This document shows, piece by piece, positions 22,695 to 34,036 of a stretch of DNA of 64,000 bases; the stretch's first letter is position 1, and each line of letters begins with the position of its first letter. Below the pieces are notes generated by a model. That model was not told the origin of the DNA. It searched no databases and saw nothing but the letters and a program-made list of their open reading frames with translations. Source of the DNA: an uncultured beta proteobacterium (GTDB taxonomy: Bacteria > Pseudomonadota > Gammaproteobacteria > Burkholderiales > Usitatibacteraceae); the NCBI GenBank assembly GCA_963698265.1, contig CAVOQC010000001.1, forward strand, positions 1,106,680-1,170,679. The letters run 5' to 3'. Both the position numbers and the translations under genes were made by a program.

Positions 22695-25600
22695 CTAGGG
22701 GCTCGCCCGGCGGGCCCTCGCGATGTCGGCGCGAAGATTCGCGCCGGTCTTCCACTTGCTCAGGGCCGGCGCGATGCTGTCGAGGACGGCGGTGGCCTCG
22801 GCGAGCAGCGCGGCGCGCCTGGCCGGCTCGGCGAGCGCCGAAACATAGACGGCGTGGGCGTACTCGAAGTGCTGCAGGTGGGAATCGTGGCGGCGCGCGA
22901 GCTGCTTGCGATGGAACTCGAGCGCCGGCTGCAGGATCTCGCGCGCCTCCGCCAGCCGCCCCTGGCGCGCGACGGCCTCGGCGAGGTACACCTGGAACAC
23001 GGCGCCTTCGCGCTCGGTCCCGAACAGGTCACGGCGCGGCAGCTTGGCGTGCTCGGCGACCATGACGCGTGCCGCCGCTTCCGCGGCCGCGAAATCGCCC
23101 AGCTCCAGGGACGCGAGGCCGATGATCTGGCTGGCGCGGATGCGAAAGCGGCCGAACCACTCCACGTCGGCCTGGCTCTCGGGCTTGATGTCGCCCAGCC
23201 CCCCCAGCGCGGTTCGCGCCTGCTGCAAGGCCTTTCGCGGGTCGCCCTCGAGGTACGGCAGGTACGCCTCGTAGGCTTCGAGCCACAGGCGCGAGAAACC
23301 GACGATCATCGGCGCGGAAGTCGGCTTGATGTACGTCTCCCACAGGCGCCGGCTTTCCGCGACCGTGGCCTTCGCCGCTGCATGGTTGCCGAGCTCGGCG
23401 TCGATTTCCGCCGAGATCCCCAGCCAGATCATCGCGTTTCGCGCCTGGAAGGAGCCGATCTTGGGCATCTGCTCGCGCACCTGCGCGGCGGAGCGGAACT
23501 TGTCGCGTGCCTCGGCGAGGCGGCCCGACTCCATGAGGGCGCCGGCCGTTCGCTGCCGCGCCACGCCCAGGTTGTTCAGGGAGGCCGTATTGGTGGAGGC
23601 GACCTTCACCATGCCTTCGTAGAGGGCCTCGTTCTCGCGCAGGAGCACCATCGCCTTCGCGATCCGCAGGTCGAACACCTCCAGGTCGGAGAGGGCGCCG
23701 AGCACGAGCCCCTTGGTGTGGATCGCCGTCGCATGGCCGGGCATTGCGTCGAGGACCTTGTTGGCGATCGCGAGCGACTCCTCGTTCTTCGCGCGGGACT
23801 CGGGCCACTTGCCCGTATCGTAGAGCGCGTCAGCGAGCCACGCGCCGGCGTTGGAATAGCCGGCGGCGGCCGAGAGGTCCGCGAGGCCCGGCGCGCCCAG
23901 CCGGCGGAAAACCTCCTGGGCCTCCTGCAGGTAGCCGATGGCTTTCCGGGCATCCCCGAAATTGCGCGTGGTGTAGCCCATCCCGGTGAGCAGCTCTCCG
24001 TACTGGCGAAGCACCGCGACCGAAGGCTTGGGCGAGGCCTCGACGAGCGGCTTCAACTCGGCCTGCGCGGCTTCGCCGGCGCGCAGGGCCTCCGCGTGCT
24101 TGAGCTGGTTCACGAGAATCATCGCCTGGTAGCTCAGGGCGCTGCCCAGGCCCAGGCGCGTGGCTTCCGACGAATCTCCCTGGGAGCCCAGCCGGCGGAA
24201 GACGGCCTCGGCTTCCTTCAAGGCGACGAGCCCCTCCTCGTGCTTGCCCTGGCGGCGCGCGACGGCGCCGGCGCGCACGAGCGCCATCGCGCGGTTGCGC
24301 TCCGTGTCGGGCGTGCGAAGTTCCGGGGGCAGGCCCTTGTAGTAGTCGAGGGCGCGATGGGCGAGCGAGGCCACGATGTCGATCCGGCCGACGGGATCGA
24401 GTTCGCGCACGAAATCGTCGAGCAGGTAGACGAGGAGCTTCTCGGACTCGCCGCGCGCCGACTCGGCCAGCTGCCGCGTCTGCTGGGCCTTCGCTTCGGC
24501 TTCCTTGGCGCGGTTCATGTTCACGTAGCCGAAGACGGCGCCAACCACCGCGAGTATCGCAAGCACGGAGGCGCCCGCGGCCACCTGGCGTGCGCGCACC
24601 AGCGCCTTGCGCGTGGCGGCCTCGCGCTCGCGCTGGGCCTCGAGCTGGCGCTCGGCGTTCTCGCGCGCCTCGCGCGCGAGCCGCATCTCGCGGCTGGCGC
24701 GGACGACCCCGCACAGCACGTCGTGGGTGAGCTCCACGCGGCGCACGTCGAGGCGCTCCTCGATGCGCAGGAGCCGCCGGTTCACGAGCGTGGGCAACGC
24801 ATCCGGGGAGGCGCCCGCGGCTTCGAACGCCTTCACCACGCGTTCCTCCGCGAGGCTCTCTCGGTAGCCCGAGTCCGTGAGCAGCTCGTCCTCGATCACC
24901 TTGCGCACCGCCGGCGGCTGGTCGGCGAGCACGCGCTCGTAGAACTCGGCGAGGATCGTGTCGTGGGAGCCCGCCAGCAGGTCTGCGGAGATCTCCGCGC
25001 GGCCCTGGGCGAGGCGCGTGTTGTTGAGTTCCCGGCAGATGAGCGACAGGAGCGAGGGCTCGACCTCGGCGTTGCGCAGCTCCGAGCCCCCGGCGATGAA
25101 GCGCACGATCGCCTCGGCCACCTCTTCCGAGACGAGATCGCCGCCCGGCTTCATCACGGCGGAGAGCGCCTGCTGGCCGTTCATGCGGGCAAGCCGCATG
25201 CGATTCTGGGTGATCGAGGGCATTGCGCCCTTGAGCCCCTCCAGGTGCGCGAGGTAGTCCTCGCGCAGCGCGATGAGGATGCGGTAGTCGGCGCGGCCGA
25301 AGTCGAAGCGCTCGGGAACGGAATCGTCCGACTCGAGCTTCGCCTCGAGCGCCTTCGGGGGCCGGTTCTCCACGAGGTCGGCGAGATCCTCGATGAACTG
25401 CGCGGCGCGCGCCTTGCCTGCATCGTCGGCCTGGGCGAGCGTGAAGACCTCCTCGAACTGGTCGAAGATCAGCAGCGGAATGACGGTCTTGCCGCTGGCG
25501 TCCTTCAGGATGTCGTCGCGGTGGTGCAGGAACTCCCAGAGCGATTCGCCCTCGGCCGCCGTGCCCGGCTGCGTCCACGTTCCCGAGGACTGCGTCGCGC

Positions 25601-25934
25601 GGAAGATCGCCGCCTTGATCTGCTCCGTGGGCGGCGGCGAATCCGGCGAATAGTCGACGCGCACGTAGACGGGGCAGTACCCCTCCGGCCGCAGCCTCGG
25701 CACGATGCCCGCGCGCAGGATCGAGGTCTTGCCCAGGCCCGACTGGCCGAAGAGGATCGTCAGGAGCTTGCGCTGCACGCGCCGGCCAAGCTCGGCGACC
25801 TCCTCTTCGCGGCCATGGAAGAAGCCGCGCGTTTCCTCCGTGTACGAGGCGAGGCCCAGCCAGGGATGCTGCGGGTCGATCGCGGGGGAAGACCCCGGCG
25901 CCGCGTCCTGCGCCTTCGCGGTCTCCGCGCTCAT
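22695..25934 (-). CDS. STAND-type P-loop NTPase (nSTAND-like) with internal TM helix and TPR-like C-terminal half
   Basis: N-terminus PWLGLASYTEETRGFFHGREEEVAELGRRV-x-LLTILFGQSGLGKTSILRAGIVPRL (Walker A at 25722-25748). Walker B VIPLLIFDQFEEVF. Helical/winged-helix region ending RRVELTHDVL. Coiled coil, then hydrophobic helix VAAGASVLAILAVVGAVFGYV (24522-24584), then about 600 aa of TPR-like repeats. The start ATG overlaps the upstream TGA (25931-25934). The track ORF extends to 26213, but that extension overlaps the upstream gene. Confidence 0.85.
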   Translation of the reverse strand: MSAETAKAQDAAPGSSPAIDPQHPWLGLASYTEETRGFFHGREEEVAELGRRVQRKLLTILFGQSGLGKTSILRAGIVPRLRPEGYCPVYVRVDYSPDSPPPTEQIKAAIFRATQSSGTWTQPGTAAEGESLWEFLHHRDDILKDASGKTVIPLLIFDQFEEVFTLAQADDAGKARAAQFIEDLADLVENRPPKALEAKLESDDSVPERFDFGRADYRILIALREDYLAHLEGLKGAMPSITQNRMRLARMNGQQALSAVMKPGGDLVSEEVAEAIVRFIAGGSELRNAEVEPSLLSLICRELNNTRLAQGRAEISADLLAGSHDTILAEFYERVLADQPPAVRKVIEDELLTDSGYRESLAEERVVKAFEAAGASPDALPTLVNRRLLRIEERLDVRRVELTHDVLCGVVRASREMRLAREARENAERQLEAQREREAATRKALVRARQVAAGASVLAILAVVGAVFGYVNMNRAKEAEAKAQQTRQLAESARGESEKLLVYLLDDFVRELDPVGRIDIVASLAHRALDYYKGLPPELRTPDTERNRAMALVRAGAVARRQGKHEEGLVALKEAEAVFRRLGSQGDSSEATRLGLGSALSYQAMILVNQLKHAEALRAGEAAQAELKPLVEASPKPSVAVLRQYGELLTGMGYTTRNFGDARKAIGYLQEAQEVFRRLGAPGLADLSAAAGYSNAGAWLADALYDTGKWPESRAKNEESLAIANKVLDAMPGHATAIHTKGLVLGALSDLEVFDLRIAKAMVLLRENEALYEGMVKVASTNTASLNNLGVARQRTAGALMESGRLAEARDKFRSAAQVREQMPKIGSFQARNAMIWLGISAEIDAELGNHAAAKATVAESRRLWETYIKPTSAPMIVGFSRLWLEAYEAYLPYLEGDPRKALQQARTALGGLGDIKPESQADVEWFGRFRIRASQIIGLASLELGDFAAAEAAARVMVAEHAKLPRRDLFGTEREGAVFQVYLAEAVARQGRLAEAREILQPALEFHRKQLARRHDSHLQHFEYAHAVYVSALAEPARRAALLAEATAVLDSIAPALSKWKTGANLRADIARARRASP
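24522..24584 (-). other. Predicted single transmembrane helix inside the STAND NTPase (residues about 451-471)
   Basis: 21 uncharged residues VAAGASVLAILAVVGAVFGYV, flanked by RKALVRARQ on the N-side and NMNRAKE on the C-side. Confidence 0.6.
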
Positions 25935-27328
25935 GCGCCGCCCCGGCCGCCGGTGCTCGTGAGCTCCTTCAGGCGGTTCACGAACTCCGGGGTTGCGGCG
26001 CCACCCGGCAACTGCGTGAGGTGCACGGCCTTGAACTTGTCGGGCACGCGCGCGCCGCGCGGGTCCGTGTCGTCGATGCACACCGGCAGGATGAAGATCG
26101 CCTCGTCGGCCATGTTGCGCGTGCGGTCCAGTGCGTAGCTCCATTCGCGGCGGAAGTAGGCCTCCAGCCGGCGGTCCGTCGTGGCGGAGACCACCGGGAT
26201 GAAGTAGGAGCATCGCGCGATGTTCTTCTGGATCTTGCGGTCGTAGTCGTCGCCGCCTTCGAGCCGGTCCATGTCGAACCAGGTCGTGATGCCGGCGGCG
26301 TCGAGCCCGCTCTTCAGTTTCTGCACGGCCGCGAGATCCTCGCGCGCGTAGCTCACGAAAACCGCGTTGTCGGGCATCTCGCGCTCGGGCGGCAGGAAGC
26401 GCTGCGGTGCCGCGCCCAGCGCGATCACCTCGCCCGGCTTGCGCCGCGCCGTCCAGCGGCGATGCAATTCGTCCACGAACTGCTCGGCGCCGCTGTAGAC
26501 GCGGGTGCGCACGCTCACCTGCTGGAGAAACGCCATCAGGCGATCATCCTGGTCGGAATGGTCGTCGGCGAGCACTTCGCCCACGTCGCGCGGGTCGGAG
26601 AGCCGCCGGCGCTTGGCCATGCGCAGGAACAGGCGCGCGAGCCAGTTCGAGAAGTTGCTGCCGATGAGGAGCAGGTGGCTGTGCTCGAGCTCGTAGAAGA
26701 GCTTCTCGGGCGTCAGGTGCTCGCTCTGCAGCGCGCAGACGAATTCGAGCACGTCCTCGTCGGAGATCACGTAGGTGGGCGAGGCAGAAACGCGGCCGAG
26801 CAGGTGGTAGACCACGGGCCGCTGCAACTGCTCGCGCTCGCCCGGCAGGTCCGCCACGCGGTTGGGCGCGTAGCTCACGACCTCCGTGGACTGGGCCCCC
26901 GCAAACCTCGTCTCGTTGATCGCCTGCTCGAGGAAGGTATCGAAGGTGGTCGAGACGAAGAGGTCGAAGTCGGTGATCTCGGCGAGCTGGCGAAGCGCCT
27001 TCGGCGGCGCGAAGTTCGTGTCGCGCAGGATGGCGCGCATGCGCGTGTAGGTGTCCTCGCGGCGCCCGCGCGCGGAGAGGAACCAGCAGACGACGTCGTT
27101 CAGCGTGTAGGGCTGCGGCAGGCGCGTCGTGTCCACGCCGAGCTTCGCGGCGAGCTTTTCCGCCATCCAGTCGTAGAGCAGGCGCGGGCCCGATTCCGTC
27201 TCGACCTTGAGGAGTTCCGGGCCGACGATGGGAATGACGCGTCTTTCCTCGATGAAGTCGAGGAGATCCTCCCAGGCGTCCTCGTCCAGCGTGGGCAGCG
27301 GCGTTTCGAGCGCGTGCACGTTGCTCAC
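25931..27328 (-). CDS. SIR2-like (SIR2_2-type Rossmann) domain fused to a C-terminal TIR domain
   Basis: The N-terminal domain shows the SIR2_2 motif order with substitutions: VIPIVGPELL, FVSTTFDTFLE, PVVYHLLGRV, LLLIGSNFSNW. The C-terminal TIR is VFVSYAREDLAAVQKLKSGLDAAGITTWFDMD...YFIPVVSATT...EAYFRREWSYAL...ILPVCID. Confidence 0.85.
   Translation of the reverse strand: MSNVHALETPLPTLDEDAWEDLLDFIEERRVIPIVGPELLKVETESGPRLLYDWMAEKLAAKLGVDTTRLPQPYTLNDVVCWFLSARGRREDTYTRMRAILRDTNFAPPKALRQLAEITDFDLFVSTTFDTFLEQAINETRFAGAQSTEVVSYAPNRVADLPGEREQLQRPVVYHLLGRVSASPTYVISDEDVLEFVCALQSEHLTPEKLFYELEHSHLLLIGSNFSNWLARLFLRMAKRRRLSDPRDVGEVLADDHSDQDDRLMAFLQQVSVRTRVYSGAEQFVDELHRRWTARRKPGEVIALGAAPQRFLPPEREMPDNAVFVSYAREDLAAVQKLKSGLDAAGITTWFDMDRLEGGDDYDRKIQKNIARCSYFIPVVSATTDRRLEAYFRREWSYALDRTRNMADEAIFILPVCIDDTDPRGARVPDKFKAVHLTQLPGGAATPEFVNRLKELTSTGGRGGA
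25994..26368 (-). other. TIR domain (residues about 321-445) with candidate catalytic Glu395 (codon 26144-26146)
   Basis: (F/V)(V/I)SY...D start motif, and the S-x-W-x-x-E-like region aligned to FRREW. Confidence 0.7.
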
Positions 27329-27551
27329 GGGTGCAGACCTCGGGACGAAGGAGACGACGGCTGGAACGGAACCGGCACGGATGCACCCCCAGGTTTCGTT
27401 TCGAGTCCGGCGGGAAGGAACTGAACCCCGCGCGGCTGCGCCCCGGGGTCGGTTGCCCCGCTCGGCGCGGATGCAGCAAAGGGTAGGCCAAACTGCGCCA
27501 TTTGAATAGCCGGACTATCATCGGCGCTCGCGCATCGACCGGAATATCCCC

Positions 27552-29429
27552 ATGAAGCATGAGACGCCCGGCGCGGGAAACGCCGCGGAGGACAGCGCCG
27601 AGGAGGCGAGCGCGCGTGCGCAGCGCGAGCTCGATCGAGGCGAGCCGCTGCTCGCCTGCAACACGGCGCAGGCGGCGCTGGACCGCTGGCCGGAGCATGC
27701 GCGCCTGCGGCAACTTCACGCCCTGGCGCTGGTGCGAAGCGGCGACCTCGAGCGCGCGAACCGGATCCTCGCCGCGCTGGCCGCTGAGGGCAGGGACGAC
27801 GCGGAGACCCTCGGGATGCTCGCGCGCACCCACAAGGATCTCGCGCTGCGCGAAGCGGAAGGGCCGCGGCGCCGCGAGCACCTCGAGGCGGGATTCAGCC
27901 TCTACGAACGGGCCTTCGAATCGGCGCGCAAGCGCGGCGCCGTGGCGGACGCGTCCTACACCGGCATCAACGCGGCGACGATGGCGGTCTTCATGGACGA
28001 CCTCCCGGGCGCGCGCCGGATCGCTTCCGCCGTGCGGGAGGCGTGCGGACGCGACGAGGGCCGCAAGGCGCCCGAGCCGGCGCGCTACTGGAGGGAGGCC
28101 ACCCTCGGGGAGGCGGCGCTGATTCTCGGCGATGCCGGGGAGGCGGGCGTGCGCTACCGCAAGGCGAGGCTGCTCTCGGGCAAGCGCTTCGGGGATCTCG
28201 GCACCACGCGCCTGCAGGCGCGACGGCTTCAGGCGCGCCTCCCCGCGACCGGCGTGGACGTGGACGCGCTCCTCGCCGTTCCGCCGGTGCTCGTCTTCAC
28301 CGGCAACATGGTCGATGCGCCGGAGCGGGAGGCTGGCCGATTTCCGGCCGCGCTCGAGCCGGCGGTGCGCGAGGCGCTGCGCGAAGCCCTCGCTGCGATC
28401 GCCCCTCTCGCGGTGTACGGGTCCGCCGCCTGCGGAGCCGACATCCTCTGCCTGGAACTCGCGCGCGAGCGGGGAGCCGAGACCCACGTCGTGCTGCCGT
28501 TCCCGCCCGCGGAGTTCCGGCACGCGAGCGTCGATTTCGCCAGCGGCGACTGGGGCGAGCGATTCGAGCGGGCGCTCGCCGCGGCCCACAGCGTGACGGT
28601 GGCGAGCGACCATCGCGCGAGCGGCAGCGCGGCCTCCTTCGAGTACGCGAACCTCATCGCCACGGGCATGGGGCGGCTGCGGGCGCAGGTGCTCGACGCC
28701 CCGCTGCGCGCGCTCGCGGCGTGGGATGCCGGCGTGCCGGCGTCGCCGGGAGGTGCGGCCTCGGTCGTCTCGCTGTGGCGCTCGCGCGGAATCACCGTGG
28801 ACACGGTGGACCTCGCGGCGTTGCGCGCGGACGAAGGCTCGCCCGCTTCCGCGACGCCGGCGGCTTCCGTAGCGGCGACCGACGGCGCCACGCGCCACGA
28901 GCTGCGCGCGATGCTCTTCGCCGACGCCGTCGGCTACAGCCAGCTGAGCGAGGACCAGATCCCGCGCTACATCTCCGGCTTCCTCGGGGCCGTGGCCGAG
29001 CTGAGCCGGAAGACCGCGCACCCCTTCGAGCACGTCGAGACTTCCGGCGACGGGCTCTACATGGTGTTCGCGACCGTGGCCGACGCGGGCCAGTTCGCCC
29101 TCGAGCTGAGCGCGCTCGCCAACGGTCTCGACCGCGCGGCCTGCGGCCTGCCGGAGCGCTTCAACCTGCGCATCGCGCTGCACTGCGGCCCGGTGCACTG
29201 CGGGCGCGACCCCATCACCGGTTCGCGCCTCTACACCGGCCCGCACACCAGCCGCACGGCGCGAATCGAGCCGATCACGCCGCCGGGGCAGGTCTACGCG
29301 AGCAGCGCCTTCGCCGCCGTTGCCGCGGCGAGCGGCGCCGACGGGCTCGCGATGGGATATGTCGGGCGCATGCCGCTCGCCAAGGGATACGGTACGCTCG
29401 GCCTGTACCACGTCCGTCCGGCCCACTGA
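27552..29429 (+). CDS. Three-domain signalling protein: TPR-like (MAP3K TRAF-binding/DUF4071-like) + Rossmann SLOG-like + class III nucleotidyl cyclase
   Basis: N-domain motifs ETLGMLARTHKD, YTGINAATMAVF, RYWREATLGEAALILGD. Middle domain VLVFTGNMVDAP...RFP...LAVYGSAACGADILCLELARERGAETHVVLPF. C-terminal cyclase domain (28899-29411) MLFADAVGYS...ETSGDGLYMVF...LRIALHCGPV...GPHTSRTARIE. Confidence 0.85.
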   Translation: MKHETPGAGNAAEDSAEEASARAQRELDRGEPLLACNTAQAALDRWPEHARLRQLHALALVRSGDLERANRILAALAAEGRDDAETLGMLARTHKDLALREAEGPRRREHLEAGFSLYERAFESARKRGAVADASYTGINAATMAVFMDDLPGARRIASAVREACGRDEGRKAPEPARYWREATLGEAALILGDAGEAGVRYRKARLLSGKRFGDLGTTRLQARRLQARLPATGVDVDALLAVPPVLVFTGNMVDAPEREAGRFPAALEPAVREALREALAAIAPLAVYGSAACGADILCLELARERGAETHVVLPFPPAEFRHASVDFASGDWGERFERALAAAHSVTVASDHRASGSAASFEYANLIATGMGRLRAQVLDAPLRALAAWDAGVPASPGGAASVVSLWRSRGITVDTVDLAALRADEGSPASATPAASVAATDGATRHELRAMLFADAVGYSQLSEDQIPRYISGFLGAVAELSRKTAHPFEHVETSGDGLYMVFATVADAGQFALELSALANGLDRAACGLPERFNLRIALHCGPVHCGRDPITGSRLYTGPHTSRTARIEPITPPGQVYASSAFAAVAAASGADGLAMGYVGRMPLAKGYGTLGLYHVRPAH

Positions 29430-29430
29430 C

Positions 29431-31356
29431 TTGCCGCTCCTCCAGCTCTCCGAAATATCGCTCGCCTTCGGCCACGTGCCGCTCCTCGACCACGCGAGCC
29501 TCGTGATCGAGCCGGGCGAGCGCGTCGGGCTCATCGGGCGAAACGGCACCGGCAAGTCGAGCCTGCTCAGGATCATCGAGGGCACGGCGCGCGCCGACGA
29601 CGGCGAATCCCGGCTCGCCGCGGGTGCGAAGCTCGCGTTCGTGCCGCAGGAGCCCGCCTTCGCGCCCGGGCAGACGGTCTACGAGGCGGTGGCCGACGGG
29701 CTGGGCGCGAGCGCGCGCCTGCTGGTGGACTACCACGCGGTGGCCCATGGGCTCGCCGCGCATCCCGGCGGAGCCGAGGAGGCGGCGTTGCTCACCCGCC
29801 TGCACGATCTCCAGGAGGCGCTCGAGGCGGGCGACGGCTGGACGCTCGCGCACCGGATAGAGGCCACGCTCTCTCGCCTGGCACTTCCCGAGGACACGCT
29901 GGTGGAGGAGCTCTCGGGAGGGCTCCGGAAGCGCGTGGCCCTCGCCCGTGCGCTGGTGCTCGAACCCGACCTGCTGCTCCTGGACGAGCCCACCAACCAC
30001 CTCGACGTCACGGCCATCGAATGGCTCGAGGACACGCTCGTCGCCTTCCCCGGCGCGGTGCTCTTCGTCACCCACGACCGGCGCTTCCTCGACCGCGTGG
30101 CGCTGCGCATCGTGGAGCTCGACCGCGGGCGGCTCGCCGACTTCCCCGGAAACTTCAGCGCCTACGAGGCGCGCAAGGCGGAGATGCTCGCGAGCGAGGC
30201 GGTAGTCAACCGCAAGTTCGACAAGGTGCTCGCCCAGGAGGAGGCGTGGATCCGCAGGGGCGTGCAGGCGCGGCGCACGCGCGACGAAGGCCGGGTGCGC
30301 AGGCTCGAGGCGCTCCGGCTCGAGCGCGCGGCGCGCCGCGAGCGCGTGGGGCGCGTGGACATCGCCCTCTCGCCGGGCGAGCGCTCCGGCAAGCTCGTGG
30401 CCGAACTCGAGGCGGTGAGCAAGCGTTTCGGCGCCAAGCGCGTGGTGGAGGCGTTTTCCACGCGGGTGATGCGCGGCGACAAGATCGGCCTCATCGGCCC
30501 CAACGGCTGCGGCAAGTCGACGCTGCTGAAGCTGATCCTGGGCGAGATCGAACCGGATTCCGGCACGGTGCGCCTGGGCACGAAGGTCACCATCGCCTAC
30601 TTCGACCAGTTCCGCGCGGCGCTGGACGAGGAAGCCACGCTCGCCGACACGATCTCTCCCGGCGCCGACTTCGTCGAGATCGACGGTACGCGCAAGCACG
30701 TGATCAGCTACCTCGGCGATTTTCTCTTTCCGCCGGAACGCGCCACTGCCCCGGTGAGGACGCTCTCCGGAGGCGAGCGCAACCGCCTGCTGCTCGCGCG
30801 CCTCTTCAGCCGGCCCGCGAGCGTCGTGGTGCTGGACGAGCCGACCAACGACCTGGACATCGAGACGCTGGAACTCCTCGAGGCGCTGCTGCAGGACTAC
30901 ACGGGCACGCTCTTCCTCGTGAGCCACGACCGGGCCTTCCTCGACAACGTCGTCACGCAGACGATCGCCTACGAAGGCGAGGGCCGGTGGAAGGAGTACG
31001 CGGGCGGCTACTCGGACTGGCAGCGCGCGCGGCGTGCCGCCCCGGAACGGGCAGGCGGTGGCGACGACGAGAGTGGTACGCGCGCCGCGGCGAAGGGCGA
31101 AGGGCGGGAGCCGCGCAAGCGCGCGAAGCTCGGCTTCAAGGAGGCGCGGGAGCTCGATGAGCTTCCGGGAAGGCTCGCGGCGCTGGAGCGGGAGCAGGCG
31201 GAACTCGCCGGCCGCCTCGCGGACCCGGCGCTCTACCAGGACCGCAGCGTGGACCTGAAGGCGCTCAACGCGCGCCGGGAAGCGATCGAAGCCGAACTCA
31301 CGGGCCTGCTCGAGCGCTGGGAGATTCTGGAAGCCAAGTCCCGGTCGTCGCGCTGA
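29431..31356 (+). CDS. uup: ABC-F family ATPase Uup
   Basis: Collinear with E. coli Uup throughout: two ABC cassettes (GRNGTGKSS, LSGGLRKRVALARAL, LLLDEPTNHLD; GPNGCGKSTLLKL, LSGGERNRLLLARL, LDEPTNDLD), the linker QEEAWIRRGVQARRTRDEGRV, and a C-terminal coiled coil. The only start compatible with the conserved N-terminus is TTG 29431, 1 nt after the upstream stop. Confidence 0.9.
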   Translation: MPLLQLSEISLAFGHVPLLDHASLVIEPGERVGLIGRNGTGKSSLLRIIEGTARADDGESRLAAGAKLAFVPQEPAFAPGQTVYEAVADGLGASARLLVDYHAVAHGLAAHPGGAEEAALLTRLHDLQEALEAGDGWTLAHRIEATLSRLALPEDTLVEELSGGLRKRVALARALVLEPDLLLLDEPTNHLDVTAIEWLEDTLVAFPGAVLFVTHDRRFLDRVALRIVELDRGRLADFPGNFSAYEARKAEMLASEAVVNRKFDKVLAQEEAWIRRGVQARRTRDEGRVRRLEALRLERAARRERVGRVDIALSPGERSGKLVAELEAVSKRFGAKRVVEAFSTRVMRGDKIGLIGPNGCGKSTLLKLILGEIEPDSGTVRLGTKVTIAYFDQFRAALDEEATLADTISPGADFVEIDGTRKHVISYLGDFLFPPERATAPVRTLSGGERNRLLLARLFSRPASVVVLDEPTNDLDIETLELLEALLQDYTGTLFLVSHDRAFLDNVVTQTIAYEGEGRWKEYAGGYSDWQRARRAAPERAGGGDDESGTRAAAKGEGREPRKRAKLGFKEARELDELPGRLAALEREQAELAGRLADPALYQDRSVDLKALNARREAIEAELTGLLERWEILEAKSRSSR

Positions 31357-31552
31357 GCGCATTCCGGGCGGGCCGCCGCGAGCCGGCGCGATGCGGCCCA
31401 GGGCCGCGCTGGCCGGACCATTACACGTGAAATCGGGAGAGTGATCCGCGGCGCAGCCCGGTGCATTCGCCCGTGCTATGAATGGCGTATCTGGAACGCG
31501 GAACTTCCGCTCAACGCTTCAGGCGAAGCCAGCTCGCCGATCATCGCCACAT

Positions 31553-34036
31553 ATGCTCAACAGCACCGAATCGCTGGAACTCCTCCCCGTCGACGATCAT
31601 CCGCCCGCCCTCCGCCCCGGCGAGCGCGCGAACCTGCTTGCGAGCTGGCCGATGCCGCCGGTCTCGCCATGGGCGCCCGGCGAGCTGGGCGAAGGGCCCG
31701 AGCGGGCGCACCTGGATTACGCGGCCGGCCGTCGCGTCGCGGGCGAGGCGTTCATCCTCGGCGCGGACGACGGCGTCCTGTTCCGTGCGGAAGGCGGGAG
31801 TTCACGGGAGCACTGGGTGCCGTTGCGCGATTTCCGGGCGCTGTCCCTCACCCGCCCGCTGGCCCTGGCCGCCCCGCCCTCCGATGGCGCGTGGCTGCGC
31901 CGGCGATACCGCCTCGAGCTCGTGGACGGCACCGTTCGCGAAGGCGAAAGCGCCGGGATGGTGCGCACCGACCTCGGCATCTTCCTGTACCCGCCTGCCG
32001 GGGACGCGTCCGTGGCAAGGCACTTCATCCCATCCGGCAGAGTGCGTGGGTTCGACTGGACGGGCGCCCCGCGCGGACACGTGCAGCTCGACCTCGACAA
32101 TATCGTGGCGCCGCCGGAGCCCGCGGCAACGGAAGCGCCCGCCGCGAAGGAAATCGAGACCATCAACGACCTCCGGGAGACGCTCGCAAGGCTCGCCCGA
32201 AGCCCCATTCGCCGGCTCGGCGAGGTGCTCGTCGATCTCGGCCACATCAGCCAGGCCCAGCTCGACGAGTCGCTCGACCGCCAGCTCGCGGACAAGGACA
32301 AGCCCCTGGGGGAGGTGCTGATCGAGATGGGCGTCGTGAAGGCCGACCAGCTGAAGGCCGTGCTCGCACAGAAGCTGGGCATCCCGCACGTGGACGCCCG
32401 CGTTTTCCCGGCGGACCCGCAGGCCCGGCTGCTCGTGCCAAGGGCACAGTGCCGCAGGCACAAGCTGATTCCGCTGTGCTTCGACGACGACGGCGGAATC
32501 GTCGTCGCGATGGACAACCCGATGTCGGGAGAAGCGCTGCAGGCGGTGCGCTTCTCCTCCGGCCGCCGTGTCGTCCCGGTGCTCGGCAGCTGGCCGGACA
32601 TCCGCGCCGCGCTTGGTTCGCGCGACGTCTGGGCCACCCATGCCTTCCTGGGCGCGCAGGCGTCGCCCGAACCGACGGCGAAGCCCGGCGTGGAAGCCCA
32701 GTTCGTGGACGCGATCGAGTTCGATCTCGACGGCGTCACCGAGCTCACGACGAAGCTCTCGCTCGAGACGACCTCCCTGGATGCGGAGCCCTCCGATACG
32801 GTGAAGGAGAGCGACTCCACGCTCGTCCGGCTCGTCAACAAGATCATCCTGGACGGACACGAGGGCGGCGCCTCAGACATCCATTTCGAGCCCGCCCCGG
32901 GAAACCGGCCGACGCGCATCCGCATGCGCCGTGACGGCGTGCTTTCCGATTACGCCGAGCTGCCCGCGAAATTCCGCGCGGCTATCGTCTCGCGCATCAA
33001 GATCATGGCGAACCTCGACATCTCGGAGCGCAGGAAGCCCCAGGACGGGAAGATCGATTTCTCGCGCTTCGGGCCGGCGAAGCTCGAACTGAGGGTCGCC
33101 ACGATCCCGACCAACAATTCGCTGGAAAGCGTGATCCTGCGCCTGCTCGTCTCGCATGAGCCGATCCCGGCGGACAAGCTGGGCCTCGATGCGAAGGTCC
33201 TCGCCACACTTCGTGTTCTCGCGGAGCGTCCCCACGGGCTCCTGCTCGTGTGTGGTCCCACGGGCTCGGGCAAGACGACCACGCTTCACTCGCTCCTCGC
33301 GATGATCAACACGCCGGAGCGCAAGATCTGGACGGCCGAAGACCCGATCGAGATCACGCAGGCCGGCCTGTCGCAGGTCCAGGTCAATCCCAAGACCGGC
33401 TGGGGATTCGCGGATGCGCTGCGCGCCTTCCTGCGCGCCGACCCCGACGTGATCATGATCGGCGAGATGCGCGACAAGGTGACCGCCGAGACGGCCGTGG
33501 AGGCCTCGCTCACCGGGCACCTCGTTTTTTCCACGCTGCACACGAACAGCGCGCCCGAAACCGTGACGCGGCTGCTGGACCTCGGCGTGGACCCGTTCAA
33601 TTTCAGCGATTCGCTCCTGGGCGTTCTTGCACAGCGCCTCGTGCGCCGGGTCTGCCCGGCATGCTCGAAGAGCGTGGAGCTGCCCGAAGAAGAGGCCCTG
33701 CGCCTCGCCGCCGAGTTCTCGGACCCAGCGGCGCTCGAGCCGGCATCCGTGCTCGCGGACTGGAGGGCGCGTTTCGGCAGGAACGGCGCCCTTTTCACGG
33801 CGAAAGGCGAGGGCTGCGAAGAGTGTCTCGATTCCGGCTACAAGGGCCGCCTCGGCGTGCACGAGTTCATGGCGTCCAGCGCCGGCACCCGCTCGATCAT
33901 CCAGTCGCGCGGCGCGGCCGAGGCGCTACGAACGCAGGCGCTCTCCGAAGGCATGCGCACCCTCAAGCAGGACGGGATCGAGAAGATGCTGATGGGGCTC
34001 ACGACCCTGGAACAGGTGCGGGGCTCGTGCGGTTGA
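31553..34036 (+). CDS. GspE/PilB/MshE-family secretion ATPase with MshEN-like domain and an extra N-terminal domain of about 215 aa
   Basis: C-terminal ATPase: GLLLVCGPTGSGKTTT (Walker A), DPDVIMIGEMRD (Walker B region), GHLVFSTLHTN, and the tetracysteine CPAC...CEEC. The T2SSE_N/MshEN repeats lie at 32213-32374. Confidence 0.88.
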   Translation: MLNSTESLELLPVDDHPPALRPGERANLLASWPMPPVSPWAPGELGEGPERAHLDYAAGRRVAGEAFILGADDGVLFRAEGGSSREHWVPLRDFRALSLTRPLALAAPPSDGAWLRRRYRLELVDGTVREGESAGMVRTDLGIFLYPPAGDASVARHFIPSGRVRGFDWTGAPRGHVQLDLDNIVAPPEPAATEAPAAKEIETINDLRETLARLARSPIRRLGEVLVDLGHISQAQLDESLDRQLADKDKPLGEVLIEMGVVKADQLKAVLAQKLGIPHVDARVFPADPQARLLVPRAQCRRHKLIPLCFDDDGGIVVAMDNPMSGEALQAVRFSSGRRVVPVLGSWPDIRAALGSRDVWATHAFLGAQASPEPTAKPGVEAQFVDAIEFDLDGVTELTTKLSLETTSLDAEPSDTVKESDSTLVRLVNKIILDGHEGGASDIHFEPAPGNRPTRIRMRRDGVLSDYAELPAKFRAAIVSRIKIMANLDISERRKPQDGKIDFSRFGPAKLELRVATIPTNNSLESVILRLLVSHEPIPADKLGLDAKVLATLRVLAERPHGLLLVCGPTGSGKTTTLHSLLAMINTPERKIWTAEDPIEITQAGLSQVQVNPKTGWGFADALRAFLRADPDVIMIGEMRDKVTAETAVEASLTGHLVFSTLHTNSAPETVTRLLDLGVDPFNFSDSLLGVLAQRLVRRVCPACSKSVELPEEEALRLAAEFSDPAALEPASVLADWRARFGRNGALFTAKGEGCEECLDSGYKGRLGVHEFMASSAGTRSIIQSRGAAEALRTQALSEGMRTLKQDGIEKMLMGLTTLEQVRGSCG
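32213..32374 (+). other. Tandem MshEN-type motifs (possible c-di-GMP binding site)
   Basis: RLGEVLVDLGHISQAQLDESLDRQ - LADKDKP - LGEVLIEMGVVKADQLKAVLAQK. Compare the published 24-residue motif RLGxx(L/V/I)(L/V/I)xxG(L/V/I)(L/V/I)xxxxLxxxLxxQ. Confidence 0.5.

What the first reader, a model, noticed from the sequence alone, without database searches (positions are those of the whole stretch)
27552..29429. TPR-like / SLOG-like / class III cyclase protein with a substituted transition-state Asn
The N-domain motifs (ETLGMLARTHKD, YTGINAATMAVF, RYWREATLGEAALILGD) match my memory of the MAP3K TRAF-binding/DUF4071 TPR-like family. The middle domain (VLVFTGNMVDAP..RFP..LAVYGSAACGADILCLELARERGAETHVVLPF) looks like a LOG/DprA-type (SLOG) Rossmann nucleotide-binding module. 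The C-terminal cyclase domain keeps both metal Asp residues (FADAVGYS D458, TSGDG D500) and the Arg of the N..R pair (R571). Aligned by eye to G-D-T-V-N-T-A-S-R-M-E, it reads GPHTSRTARIE, which puts Ser567 at the Asn position. The product and activity are therefore uncertain. It could be an atypical cNMP synthase or a regulatory pseudo-cyclase. Its divergent position next to the TIR/STAND operon suggests functional linkage, but that is unproven.
Basis: partly seen in the sequence, partly recalled or inferred. Interest (0 to 1): 0.65.

Follow-up and report, generated by a model that had tools for sequence, protein, structure and literature searches.

The report
Sensor-fused cyclase beside TIR genes
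This is a real 625-residue bacterial protein that joins two predicted small-molecule-sensing domains to a nucleotide cyclase with an unusual active site; it sits in a mobile three-gene cassette with TIR/SIR2 and STAND genes, which suggests an untested relay from NAD-derived signals to cyclic nucleotides.

Summary
ORF 27552-29429(+) encodes TPR-S (Pfam E 3e-19), a Pfam-unmodelled Rossmann-like domain, and a class III cyclase domain. The best structural matches of the middle domain are all SLOG proteins (DprA, Moco carrier, LOG). Profile alignment to solved cyclases puts Ser567 on the transition-state Asn. D458, D500 and R571 are kept, and Glu496 sits at the Lys/Glu specificity position, as in guanylate cyclases.

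Across 151 divergent family members the two Asp and the Arg are about 99% conserved. The Asn position reads S 61%, N 19%, V 9%, T 7%. That pattern fits an active enzyme with a relaxed Asn requirement, not a dead domain.

The family is large: more than 2000 clusters at 50% identity, in at least seven phyla. A TIR gene lies within 5 kb in 45 of 80 genomes, in at least six TIR architectures. Two members are direct nSTAND1 fusions. Thirty percent carry an N-terminal RyR domain, and 16 of 80 have a small cNMP-binding protein next door.

The best reading is that a TIR-made NAD-derived signal is sensed by TPR-S/SLOG and switches on cNMP synthesis. This is inferred, not shown. I class it as a new variant of known kinds (Thoeris-like plus Pycsar-like).

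The parts
27552..29429 (+). Gene for the 625-aa TPR-S / SLOG-like / class III cyclase protein
   Evidence: ORF and translation. More than 1436 homologues. AF2 model has pLDDT 84 and pTM 0.85.
27597..28238 (+). All-helical TPR region, aa 16-229. It contains the TPR-S Pfam match at aa 37-144 (nt 27660-27983). Predicted sensor for NAD-derived ligands.
   Evidence: PF20308 E 2.9e-19; PF13281 23.8 bits. Helices H16-229 in the AF2 model.
28281..28832 (+). SLOG-like Rossmann-like domain, aa 244-427. Conserved motifs: VFxG[HN]MxD, PRFP, SAAxGxD(I/L)LxxE, VLP, WxxRF, WD..GG(T/A)A.
   Evidence: No Pfam or PDB sequence hit. AF2 domain model has pLDDT 85. Foldseek top hits are DprA, ShosA, Moco carrier protein and LOG, E 4.5e-5 to 1e-3, TM 0.36-0.41. 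Motif conservation.
28887..29420 (+). Class III nucleotidyl cyclase homology domain, aa 446-623. Contains D458, E496, D500, L560, H565, S567 and R571.
   Evidence: PF00211. Foldseek matches Rv1900c and Cya2 with TMt 0.71-0.76. Profile against PDB gives E 7e-13. Residue mapping.
29250..29252 (+). Codon AGC = Ser567, at the position of the canonical transition-state Asn
   Evidence: Family distribution at this position: S 92, N 29, V 14, T 11 of 151.
27329..27551 (.). 223-bp divergent intergenic region between the SIR2-TIR and cyclase genes. Presumed shared regulatory region.
   Evidence: Sequence read. No sigma-70 consensus or terminator found.
25931..27328 (-). SIR2_2 + TIR_2 fusion protein, 465 aa. 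The TIR catalytic Glu is retained as E395 (nt 26144-26146).
   Evidence: Pfam. L-INS-i alignment with AbTir and SPARTA TIRs. Homologues are 79-100% identical in the top 120 clusters.
22695..25934 (-). nSTAND1 NTPase - predicted transmembrane helix (aa 451-469, nt 24528-24584) - hypervariable TPR array, 1079 aa. Its start codon overlaps the SIR2-TIR stop (ATGA).
   Evidence: PF20703 E 4.7e-33. ATGA overlap. Hydropathy 2.35. Identity gradient 86%, 57%, 32% along the protein.

Best explanation
The protein is a ligand-gated nucleotide cyclase. It acts as the receiver and converter in a TIR-centred signalling cassette. Proposed chain, all inferred: (1) The membrane-anchored nSTAND1 NTPase detects a cue through its hypervariable, probably extracytoplasmic, TPR array. 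(2) It activates the translationally coupled SIR2-TIR protein. (3) The TIR domain (and/or SIR2) turns NAD+ into an ADP-ribose-derived messenger. (4) The TPR-S and/or SLOG-like domains of the cyclase protein bind that messenger. (5) Binding promotes a productive dimer of the C-terminal class III cyclase domain, which makes a 3',5'-cNMP. Glu496 at the specificity position makes cGMP the first guess for this clade, with low confidence. (6) The cNMP acts on cNMP-binding proteins encoded elsewhere. What is shown: the domain architecture; the Ser-for-Asn active site with the metal Asp pair and the Arg retained; family-wide conservation of these residues; and recurrent genomic linkage to TIR, nSTAND1 and cNMP-binding genes. 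Nothing biochemical is shown.
For: Architecture.

Active-site conservation in 151 representatives at 50% clustering: D458 149, D500 148, R571 150, G563 150, E573 148, H565 133. S, N and T alternate at position 567.

cNMP output: a 130-aa stand-alone cNMP_binding protein (E 1.7e-23) lies convergent, mostly within tens of bp (one about 0.8 kb upstream), of the cyclase gene in 16 of 80 genomes. Those cyclases have the same HVET[SA]GDG...GPHTSR active site as the window protein. A Pkinase-cNMP_binding gene lies nearby in 10.

TIR link: a TIR gene lies within 5 kb in 45 of 80 loci (29 of 54 with full flanks), and nSTAND1 in 34 of 80. The SIR2-TIR/nSTAND1/cyclase cassette occurs in at least three unrelated flanking contexts (uup, metH, isc) and in both divergent and co-directional order. 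Other phyla pair the cyclase with TIR+DUF4062/nSTAND1, TIR-TM-TPR, TIR-TM-WD40, TIR-TM-Sel1-like or TIR-multiTM proteins. Two family representatives are nSTAND1-TPR-S-SLOG-cyclase fusions.

Sensor role: TPR-S is the TPR of the cADPR-activated Thoeris type VIII effector. A plasmid homologue next to a type-VIII-like TIR has TPR-S at E 1.5e-17. A TIR-associated TPR protein (BcTpr) from the TPR set catalogued by Burroughs & Aravind 2020 is reported to bind cADPR (10.1101/2023.05.26.542521); I did not test whether BcTpr carries TPR-S. SLOG is the 3'cADPR sensor of ThsA (10.64898/2025.12.03.692087). 45 of 150 family representatives carry an N-terminal RyR domain, a fold shown to bind or cleave cADPR isomers (PMC13232231).

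TIR competence: the catalytic Glu is retained as E395.

Immune-like evolution: the nSTAND1 NTPase module is 86% identical across loci, but its C-terminal TPR array is only 32% identical.
Against: There are no biochemical data for any member.

The canonical transition-state Asn is missing. About 9% of relatives have Val there, so catalysis may be slow or differently organised. The AF2 model is least confident exactly at residues 563-570.

SLOG membership rests on fold similarity with low TM scores (0.36-0.41) and has no sequence-level support.

No cNMP-binding protein is encoded in the 64-kb window, so the output target here is unknown.

Seen from the SIR2-TIR side, nSTAND1 is always present (49 of 49), but the cyclase is adjacent in only 14 of 49 loci (5 of 18 with large flanks). 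Many cyclase loci, such as those in Verrucomicrobiota, have only housekeeping neighbours. The link is therefore facultative.

The direction of information flow is not determined by any of these data.

The SIR2-TIR protein is unusually conserved (at least 79% identity in 120 clusters), and the locus is not in an obvious defence island. A physiological role rather than an antiviral one therefore remains possible.
Confidence: 0.45

Rival explanations
1. Pseudo-cyclase. The C-terminal domain has lost catalysis because of Asn to Ser. It serves only as a dimerisation or NTP-binding regulatory module. The protein's real output would be the SLOG-like domain or protein-protein contacts with SIR2-TIR/nSTAND1.
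For: Ser567 replaces the transition-state Asn. Val occupies this position in 14 of 151 relatives. Inactive cNMP cyclase domains are documented in other conflict systems (PMC7159879). AF2 confidence is low at residues 563-570.
Against: Both metal Asp residues and the Arg are about 99% conserved across a family whose members are only about 40% identical overall. A family-specific motif G-x-H-V-[SN]-R-A-A-R-I-E-P is maintained. 29 of 151 members have the canonical Asn at the same site, so S and N appear interchangeable. cNMP-binding proteins are encoded immediately next to close relatives with the identical active site.
Confidence: 0.12
2. Reverse order. The TPR-S/SLOG-cyclase protein is the upstream sensor, and its cNMP activates the SIR2-TIR/nSTAND1 pair as NAD-depleting effectors. 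This is the logic of Pycsar/Pucsar.
For: Pycsar and Pucsar systems use a cyclase upstream of TIR effectors (10.64898/2026.08.12.744502). Family members carry varied N-terminal sensor domains: RyR, GAF, cNMP_binding.
Against: Neither SIR2-TIR nor nSTAND1 has a detectable cNMP-binding domain, which is the defining feature of Pycsar/Pucsar effectors. The hypervariable sensor-like region is on the STAND protein, not on the cyclase protein. TPR-S, SLOG and RyR are all domains tied to sensing TIR products.
Confidence: 0.1
3. The SLOG-like domain is an enzyme, a LOG-type N-glycosidase or a signal-processing hydrolase. It would make or destroy a nucleotide signal, with TPR-S as scaffold and the cyclase as a second catalytic output or a regulator.
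For: LOG-family SLOG domains are phosphoribohydrolases. The Thoeris VIII effector pairs TPR-S with a nucleotide hydrolase-type domain. The middle domain has strongly conserved polar residues: D255, R263, D297, E302, R337, D392.
Against: The LOG catalytic motif PGGxGTxxE is not present as such; the sequence reads PGG(T/A)AS with no Glu. The closest folds are DprA and the Moco carrier protein, which are binding proteins rather than enzymes. The conserved residues fit a ligand pocket equally well.
Confidence: 0.1
4. Ordinary physiological cAMP/cGMP signalling protein whose adjacency to TIR/STAND genes has no functional meaning.
For: The window locus lies among housekeeping genes: uup, pilB-like, an aminotransferase, ppk2. 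Many relatives have only housekeeping neighbours. The cyclase is absent next to most SIR2-TIR/nSTAND1 pairs.
Against: A TIR gene lies within 5 kb in 56% of 80 species-level genomes, with at least six different TIR architectures and several gene orders. The cassette is preserved while the flanks change. There are direct nSTAND1 fusions and RyR fusions. No TIR hit lay more than 5 kb away in the same loci.
Confidence: 0.08

Closest known systems
Thoeris type VIII effector ThsI and other TIR-associated TPR-S proteins (Burroughs & Aravind 2020; 10.64898/2025.12.03.692087)
   Same: It shares the TPR-S domain: PF20308 at E 3e-19 here and E 1.5e-17 in a plasmid ThsI-like protein next to a type-VIII-like TIR. 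It is also encoded next to TIR genes.
   Different: ThsI has an N-terminal nucleotide-hydrolase-type Rossmann domain followed by TPR-S, and no cyclase. Here the order is TPR-S, then a SLOG-like domain, then a cyclase. The partner is a SIR2-TIR fusion plus a STAND NTPase, not a lone ThsB. Pairwise similarity is insignificant (E 0.45).
Thoeris type I effector ThsA (SIR2-SLOG)
   Same: It combines the same domain vocabulary (TIR, SIR2, SLOG) around NAD-derived signalling. In ThsA the SLOG domain is the 3'cADPR sensor.
   Different: In ThsA, SIR2 and SLOG are on one effector and the TIR is separate. Here SIR2 is fused to TIR, and the SLOG-like domain is fused to a cyclase. No ThsA structure appeared among the top 50 Foldseek hits.
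Pycsar / Pucsar antiphage cNMP systems
   Same: A class III-type cyclase is genomically linked to a TIR protein, and a cNMP is the presumed messenger.
   Different: Those cyclases are mostly stand-alone, and their TIR or TM effectors carry a cNMP-binding domain. Here the cyclase carries TPR-S and SLOG-like domains, and the TIR protein has no cNMP-binding domain. PADLOC gives no hit.
Canonical class III cyclases (sGC-beta 3et6, Cya2 2w01, Rv1900c 1ybt, 3mr7)
   Same: It has the same fold (TMt 0.71-0.76), the two metal Asp residues and the transition-state Arg. The E-T-x-G-D motif matches guanylate cyclases.
   Different: Ser replaces the transition-state Asn. His565 replaces the usual Thr two residues earlier. 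The second specificity position is Leu560, not Cys or Asp. The family-wide signature is G-x-H-V-[SN]-R-A-A-R-I-E-P.
ASK1/MAP3K5 TRAF-binding region (DUF4071, PF13281)
   Same: The TPR part is homologous. The window protein scores 23.8 bits and several relatives pass the cut-off.
   Different: The match covers only profile positions 172-266 of 371. The N-terminal half of DUF4071 is absent, and there is no kinase.
nSTAND1-centred conflict systems and Avs-type STAND sensors
   Same: The partner NTPase is nSTAND1, with a conserved NTPase module and a rapidly diverging C-terminal repeat array.
   Different: The effector (SIR2-TIR) is a separate, translationally coupled protein. The STAND protein has a predicted transmembrane helix. 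A third, cyclase-bearing component is present.

Membership tests
Class III nucleotidyl cyclase (PF00211) | Cyclase homology domain recognised by HMM and by fold | tested here: met
   25.6-29.6 bits against a cut-off of 21.9. Family profile against PDB cyclases gives E 7e-13. Foldseek TMt 0.71-0.76.
Class III nucleotidyl cyclase (PF00211) | Two metal-binding Asp residues | tested here: met
   D458 and D500 are present, and are conserved in 149 and 148 of 151 relatives.
Class III nucleotidyl cyclase (PF00211) | Transition-state Asn...Arg pair | tested here: not met
   Arg571 is present (150 of 151). The Asn position is Ser567. Family distribution: S 92, N 29, V 14, T 11.
Class III nucleotidyl cyclase (PF00211) | Canonical substrate-specifying pair (Lys/Asp for ATP, Glu/Cys for GTP) | tested here: inconclusive
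   Glu496 aligns with the guanylate cyclase Glu. The second position is Leu560. Most of the wider family has Asn at position 496.
Class III nucleotidyl cyclase (PF00211) | Dimer-dependent cNMP synthesis | not testable with these tools
   Needs enzymology.
TPR-S (PF20308) | HMM match above the curated cut-off | tested here: met
   70-72 bits against a cut-off of 27.6.
TPR-S (PF20308) | Genomic association with TIR genes | tested here: met
   45 of 80 loci have a TIR gene within 5 kb.
TPR-S (PF20308) | Binding of an NAD-derived nucleotide | not testable with these tools
   Reported for a TIR-associated TPR protein (BcTpr) and inferred for ThsI. BcTpr was not checked for TPR-S here. Untested for this protein.
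MAP3K_TRAF_bd / DUF4071 (PF13281) | Full-length HMM match above the cut-off, including the N-terminal half | tested here: not met
   23.8 bits against a cut-off of 24.1, covering only profile positions 172-266 of 371.
SLOG superfamily (LOG/DprA/MCP/ThsA-SLOG) | Rossmann-like fold closest to LOG/DprA-type structures | tested here: met
   The top 14 Foldseek PDB hits are DprA, ShosA and the Moco carrier protein, followed by LOG. E 4.5e-5 to 1e-3, probability 0.97-1.0, but TM only 0.32-0.41.
SLOG superfamily (LOG/DprA/MCP/ThsA-SLOG) | Sequence-profile membership in a described SLOG family | tested here: not met
   No Pfam hit for 14 diverse members at E up to 10. No PDB hit with the domain profile.
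SLOG superfamily (LOG/DprA/MCP/ThsA-SLOG) | Gly-rich nucleotide-binding loops | tested here: inconclusive
   By eye, SAACGAD after strand 2 resembles the DprA S-G-x-A-x-G-x-D motif, and PGGAAS resembles the LOG PGGxGT motif. No alignment-based test was done.
Thoeris-type TIR signalling system | TIR protein with the catalytic Glu, encoded beside a protein carrying a signal-sensing domain | tested here: met
   TIR E395 aligns with the AbTir and SPARTA catalytic Glu. TPR-S and the SLOG-like domain are on the neighbouring protein.
Thoeris-type TIR signalling system | Phage-triggered production of an ADPR-derived signal that activates the partner | not testable with these tools
   Needs infection assays and LC-MS.
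Pycsar/Pucsar | Effector carrying a cNMP-binding domain encoded with the cyclase | tested here: not met
   No cNMP-binding domain in SIR2-TIR or nSTAND1, nor anywhere in the window. No PADLOC hit for the cyclase protein.

The most novel reading that the evidence does not exclude
The cassette is a two-messenger transmembrane relay. A membrane-anchored STAND NTPase has a hypervariable TPR array outside the cell. In other phyla the equivalent is a TIR-TM-TPR, TIR-TM-WD40 or TIR-TM-Sel1 protein. This sensor switches on a TIR (and/or SIR2) enzyme. The resulting ADP-ribose-type product is read by the TPR-S/SLOG (and RyR) domains. An atypical Ser-type cyclase then converts it into a cGMP or cAMP signal that acts in trans on cNMP-binding proteins. 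This would be the first pathway in which a TIR-made NAD-derived messenger is transduced into a cyclic mononucleotide.
Probability: 0.3. Interest if true: 0.8.

Novelty: new variant of a known kind. Interest (0 to 1): 0.62.

Why it matters
TIR/NAD-derived signalling (Thoeris, plant and animal TIRs) and cyclic-mononucleotide signalling (Pycsar, Pucsar, classical cAMP/cGMP) are currently treated as separate messenger systems. This family physically fuses the predicted receptors for the first system (TPR-S, SLOG, often RyR) to the generator of the second. It is very widespread in environmental bacteria: more than 2000 clusters at 50% identity.

If the relay is real, it shows how bacteria can amplify or re-route an immune or stress signal between messenger classes. 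It would also give a tractable soluble protein in which to find out what TPR-S binds, which bears on the homologous TPR of the animal ASK1 signalosome. Finally, it defines a cyclase subclass that works without the canonical transition-state Asn.

The predicted transmembrane topology of the partner sensors also raises the possibility that TIR signalling can report events outside the cytoplasm.

Tried and rejected
- Sequence-level proof of SLOG. Pfam on the isolated domain, Pfam on 14 diverse members at E up to 10, and a domain profile against all PDB sequences gave nothing relevant. Only the fold comparison supports the assignment.
- PADLOC and NCBIfam gave no family for the cyclase protein or for nSTAND1.
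- I could not read the two papers that probably define TPR-S and SLOG (Burroughs & Aravind 2020 J Bacteriol; Burroughs et al. 2015 NAR). They are not held. What I say about them rests on memory and on how held papers cite them.
- Full-text searches for 'TPR-S' together with SLOG, nSTAND1 or cyclase found no paper describing this architecture.
- The direct BLASTP of the window protein against the ThsI-like plasmid protein was insignificant (E 0.45). The relationship rests on the shared Pfam family.
- A first alignment suggested that the TIR lacked its catalytic Glu because of W-on-W anchoring. I rejected this after a broader L-INS-i alignment placed E395 on the catalytic Glu.
- The by-eye impression that the SIR2 'TTNYD' Asn is replaced (the sequence reads STTFD) could not be tested, because no SIR2 structure matched by sequence.
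- The promoter and terminator scan of the divergent intergenic region found nothing.
- The conserved multi-TM protein that follows nSTAND1 in cyclase-less loci has no Pfam or PADLOC hit, so my guess that it is a SLATT protein is unsupported.
I replaced it with local jackhmmer counts.
Full report
**1. The observation**

The window is about 69% G+C. It carries an ATG-initiated ORF at exactly 27552-29429(+) that encodes 625 residues. The residue numbers D458, D500, S567 and R571 are correct.

The gene is real. More than 1436 database proteins match it at E below 1e-3. The best 120 are all about 620 residues long, cover the full length, and are 62-96% identical. The closest (96%) comes from a Betaproteobacteria MAG.

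**2. Domain anatomy**

Pfam finds TPR-S (PF20308) at aa 37-144, E 2.9e-19. It finds Guanylate_cyc (PF00211) at aa 448-590, 25.6 bits against a cut-off of 21.9. When the N-terminal region is scanned alone, it also reaches MAP3K_TRAF_bd/DUF4071 (PF13281) at 23.8 bits, just below the 24.1 cut-off and covering only profile positions 172-266 of 371. Several homologues pass that cut-off.

An AlphaFold2 model built from 36 homologues is confident (pLDDT 84, pTM 0.85). It shows three regions:
- an all-helical region, aa 16-229;
- an alternating beta/alpha domain, aa 244-427;
- a beta-alpha-beta-beta-alpha-beta domain, aa 446-623.

Foldseek matches the last region to class III cyclases (Rv1900c, Cya2, CyaC, RhoGC) with target-normalised TM 0.71-0.76.

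The middle domain has no Pfam hit. This holds for 14 diverse members at E up to 10, and a domain profile finds nothing in PDB sequences. A separate domain model (pLDDT 85) retrieves DprA, the DprA-like ShosA and the Moco carrier protein as its 14 best PDB matches, with LOG enzymes just below. The values are E 4.5e-5 to 1e-3 and probability about 1, but TM is only 0.32-0.41. These are all SLOG-superfamily proteins. 'SLOG-like' is therefore supported at fold level and remains unproven at sequence level.

The domain is strongly conserved. Its motifs are VFxGHMxD, PRFP, SAAxGxDILFxE, VLP, WxxRF and WDG..GGTA.

**3. The cyclase active site**

Two alignments agree. They are phmmer of the protein against sGC-beta (3et6) and a 17-sequence family profile against 3mr7, 3et6 and the ANP-receptor cyclase (E 7e-13 to 9e-11). 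The mapping is:
- FADAVGYS aligns with the first metal-Asp strand.
- [VE/KN]T-x-GDG aligns with K/E-T-x-GD.
- G-x-H-V-S-R-A-A-R-I-E aligns with G-D-T-V-N-x-A-S-R-M-E.

Ser567 therefore occupies the transition-state Asn position, and Arg571 the Arg position. Glu496 sits where adenylate cyclases have Lys and guanylate cyclases have Glu. The second specificity position is Leu560, which is not canonical.

A search of 1.84 billion cluster representatives found 9004 proteins at E below 1e-3 and 2020 at E below 1e-30. Nearly all of the top 150 match over the full length of the three-domain profile. In an alignment of those 150 plus the query:

| Position | Count of 151 |
|---|---|
| D458 | 149 |
| D500 | 148 |
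| R571 | 150 |
| G563 | 150 |
| E573 | 148 |
| H565 | 133 |
| Asn position 567 | S 92, N 29, V 14, T 11 |
| Position 496 | N 118, E 18 |

. Overall identity among these proteins is only about 40%.

A dead domain would not be expected to keep the metal ligands and the Arg almost invariant. The free exchange of Ser and Asn argues that Ser is a tolerated equivalent. From memory of the mutational literature on mammalian and mycobacterial cyclases, loss of this Asn lowers kcat but does not abolish activity. I could not check that here.

There are two active-site subfamilies:
- HVET[SA]GDG...YTGPHTSR, found in Proteobacteria and including the window protein;
- KNTWGDG...G[TA]HVSRAARIEP, found in other phyla.

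One caveat applies. The 80 genome loci were fetched with patterns that include GDGLYMVF and LFADAVG. Conservation within those loci is therefore partly by construction. The representative search is the less biased evidence.

**4. Surroundings in the window**

Divergent from the cyclase gene, across a 223-bp spacer, lies a 465-aa SIR2_2+TIR_2 fusion at 25931-27328(-). It is followed by a 1079-aa nSTAND1 NTPase with C-terminal TPRs at 22695-25934(-). The nSTAND1 ATG overlaps the SIR2-TIR stop codon (ATGA).

Downstream of the cyclase gene, the ABC-F gene uup starts 2 nt after the stop codon. A PilB/MshE-like ATPase follows. No cNMP-binding protein is encoded anywhere in the 64 kb. PADLOC recognises only the TIR domain. 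It finds nothing for the cyclase protein or nSTAND1.

**5. Is the linkage real?**

*From the cyclase side.* Homologues at 63-96% identity keep the nSTAND1 / SIR2-TIR / cyclase arrangement while the flanks change. The flank is uup in some loci, metH in others, and the isc operon plus lysyl-tRNA synthetase in others.

I examined 80 species-representative genomes from Beta- and Gammaproteobacteria, Acidobacteriota, Verrucomicrobiota, Chloroflexota, Methylomirabilota, Gemmatimonadota and a deltaproteobacterium. HMMs built from the neighbours gave these counts:

| Neighbour | All 80 loci | 54 loci with at least 3 kb each side |
|---|---|---|
| TIR gene within 5 kb | 45 | 29 |
| nSTAND1 within 5 kb | 34 | 23 |
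| Small cNMP-binding protein within 1 kb | 16 | 14 |
| At least one of these | 57 | 40 |

No TIR hit lay beyond 5 kb in these loci.

The TIR partners are not one inherited unit. They include:
- SIR2-TIR with nSTAND1, in both divergent and co-directional order;
- TIR_2+DUF4062 with nSTAND1 in Acidobacteriota;
- TIR-TM-TPR, TIR-TM-WD40, TIR-TM-Sel1-like and TIR-multiTM proteins.

Two family representatives (P0202, P0219) are nSTAND1-TPR-S-SLOG-cyclase fusions. One has an N-terminal GAF domain and one a cNMP-binding domain. 45 of 150 carry an N-terminal RyR domain. RyR-bearing members in the genome set are again next to TIR genes.

*From the SIR2-TIR side.* Among 80 metagenome loci, nSTAND1 follows SIR2-TIR in 49 of 49 informative loci. 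The cyclase is adjacent in only 14 of 49 (5 of 18 with large flanks). Nearly all of these are loci where SIR2-TIR is at least 79% identical to the window copy (one more example).

The pair is therefore the constant core, and the cyclase is a clade-specific third component. About eleven of the cyclase-less loci instead carry a conserved multi-TM protein of about 330 aa, of unknown family, after nSTAND1.

**6. Clues to function**

(a) *Output.* In gammaproteobacterial relatives with the same active-site motifs as the window protein, a 130-aa stand-alone cNMP_binding protein (E 1.7e-23) is encoded convergently next to the cyclase gene, usually within tens of bp of its stop codon. A Ser/Thr kinase-cNMP_binding gene lies about 3 kb away. 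This is the best available evidence that the product is a conventional cyclic mononucleotide.

(b) *Input.* TPR-S is the TPR of the Thoeris type VIII effector ThsI. ThsI is activated by canonical cADPR, and its TPR was proposed as the cADPR receptor (10.64898/2025.12.03.692087).

I recovered a ThsI-like 'TRAFs-binding domain-containing protein' beside a TIR that is 56% identical to a listed type VIII ThsB on an E. coli IncP plasmid. It carries TPR-S at E 1.5e-17, after an N-terminal Rossmann domain.

A Bacillus cereus TIR-associated TPR protein (BcTpr) is reported to bind cADPR by ITC (10.1101/2023.05.26.542521). I did not check that BcTpr carries TPR-S.

SLOG is the 3'cADPR sensor of ThsA. 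Phage RyR-domain proteins bind or cleave 2'/3'cADPR (PMC13232231).

From memory, Burroughs & Aravind (J Bacteriol 2020) defined this TPR as a predicted sensor of NAD-derived signals and traced it into the ASK signalosome. That paper is not held, so I could not verify this.

(c) *Signal generator.* A broad alignment places TIR residue E395 on the catalytic Glu of AbTir and SPARTA TIRs. An earlier narrower alignment had suggested the Glu was missing. I could not assess whether the SIR2 domain is catalytically competent.

(d) *Sensor.* Across loci, the nSTAND1 NTPase module is 86% identical, the linker 57%, and the C-terminal TPR array only 32%. SIR2-TIR is 81-90% identical and the cyclase protein 62-73%. 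A conserved engine with a fast-diverging repeat array is the usual signature of an immune-type sensor. The nSTAND1 protein also has one strongly hydrophobic 19-residue segment (aa 451-469, mean hydropathy 2.35) between the NTPase and the TPRs. This parallels the TIR-TM-repeat partners in other phyla.

**7. Most likely mechanism**

All steps are inferred. A cue is sensed by the variable, possibly extracytoplasmic, TPR array. This activates nSTAND1 and, through it, the coupled SIR2-TIR. The TIR converts NAD+ into an ADPR-type messenger. TPR-S and/or the SLOG-like domain of the cyclase protein bind it and license the cyclase dimer. The cNMP then acts on cNMP-binding proteins encoded elsewhere. 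For this Glu496 clade the product is perhaps cGMP.

I give this about 0.45. The rivals are:
- a catalytically dead regulatory cyclase domain (0.12);
- the reverse order, with cNMP acting upstream of SIR2-TIR (0.10), which is disfavoured because no partner has a cNMP-binding domain;
- an enzymatic rather than sensory SLOG-like domain (0.10);
- meaningless adjacency (0.08).

Whether the system is antiviral or physiological is open. Against a classical defence role are the extreme conservation of SIR2-TIR and the non-island context. In favour are the TIR/SIR2/STAND vocabulary and the hypervariable sensor.

**8. Comparison with known systems, and novelty**

The system works like a hybrid of two known kinds: Thoeris (a TIR product read by a SLOG or TPR-S domain) and Pycsar/Pucsar (a class III cyclase making an immune cNMP). 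It is a member of neither.
- It has no ThsA, ThsI or ThsB architecture.
- No partner protein carries the cNMP-binding domain that defines Pycsar/Pucsar effectors.
- PADLOC gives no hit.

As a cyclase it fails one defining feature, the Asn of the Asn-Arg pair. As DUF4071 it matches only the TPR half.

I found no held paper that describes the TPR-S-SLOG-cyclase protein or the three-gene cassette. The Aravind laboratory's catalogues, which I could not read, may list it.

My rating is a new variant of a known kind, with interest 0.62.

Noticed in passing
window 22695-25934 (-); TM segment nt 24528-24584: The nSTAND1 protein has a single strongly hydrophobic segment (aa 451-469, mean hydropathy 2.35) between the NTPase module and the TPR array. 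The more positive flank is on the N-terminal side. This suggests a membrane-anchored STAND protein with its TPR sensor outside the cytoplasm. Identity across loci falls from 86% (aa 1-450) to 32% (aa 621-1079).
   Followed up: partly
window 25931-25934: The SIR2-TIR stop codon and the nSTAND1 start codon overlap (ATGA), implying translational coupling. nSTAND1 follows SIR2-TIR in 49 of 49 informative metagenome loci.
   Followed up: yes
L122 9368-10378; also L169, L141, L154, L138, L139, L143, L155, L160, L168, L165: In SIR2-TIR/nSTAND1 loci that lack the cyclase, a conserved multi-TM protein of about 330 aa follows nSTAND1. It has no Pfam or PADLOC hit. It may be an alternative third component or effector.
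   Followed up: partly
L033, L037, L038, L042, L048, L052-L054, L062, L067, L072, L077 (just downstream of the cyclase gene): A stand-alone 130-aa cNMP-binding protein is encoded convergently, within tens of bp of the cyclase stop codon, in gammaproteobacterial relatives. A Ser/Thr kinase-cNMP-binding gene lies about 3 kb away in 10 loci. Neither is present in the window.
   Followed up: partly
L063, L035, L048, L072 (TIR-TM-TPR); L081 (TIR-TM-WD40); L082, L090 (TIR-TM-Sel1-like); L075, L078 (TIR-multiTM): In other phyla the cyclase gene, often with an N-terminal RyR domain, sits next to single proteins with a cytoplasmic TIR, a transmembrane helix and a repeat-type sensor domain. This is the same logic as the SIR2-TIR plus nSTAND1-TM-TPR pair.
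   Followed up: partly
window 25931-27328 (-), SIR2 part, about aa 123-130: By eye, the SIR2 'TTNYD' motif reads STTFD, so the catalytic Asn may be replaced by Thr. The His motif reads YHLLG. No solved SIR2 structure matched by sequence, so the catalytic status of the SIR2 domain is unresolved.
   Followed up: no
one search hit list; window 25931-27328: The SIR2-TIR protein is extraordinarily conserved for a putative immune gene. The 120 best clusters at 90% identity are all 79-100% identical to it, and more than 4400 hits were found.
   Followed up: partly
window 29431-31356 (+) and 31478-34036 (+): The ABC-F gene uup starts with TTG 2 nt after the cyclase stop codon, so the two may be co-transcribed in this lineage. 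Next is a PilB/MshE-like ATPase with an MshEN c-di-GMP-binding domain.
   Followed up: no
L091 (E. coli IncP plasmid NZ_CP147111.1) 2776-5972: A compact locus carries a TPR-S 'TRAFs-binding domain' protein, two TIR proteins and a DUF4231 protein. It matches the published description of rare loci that combine Thoeris type VII and type VIII effectors.
   Followed up: partly
L007, L092, L093: In several long-read metagenome contigs the nSTAND1 and cyclase genes are split into several called genes. These are probably frameshift errors of the assemblies, not real pseudogenes.
   Followed up: no
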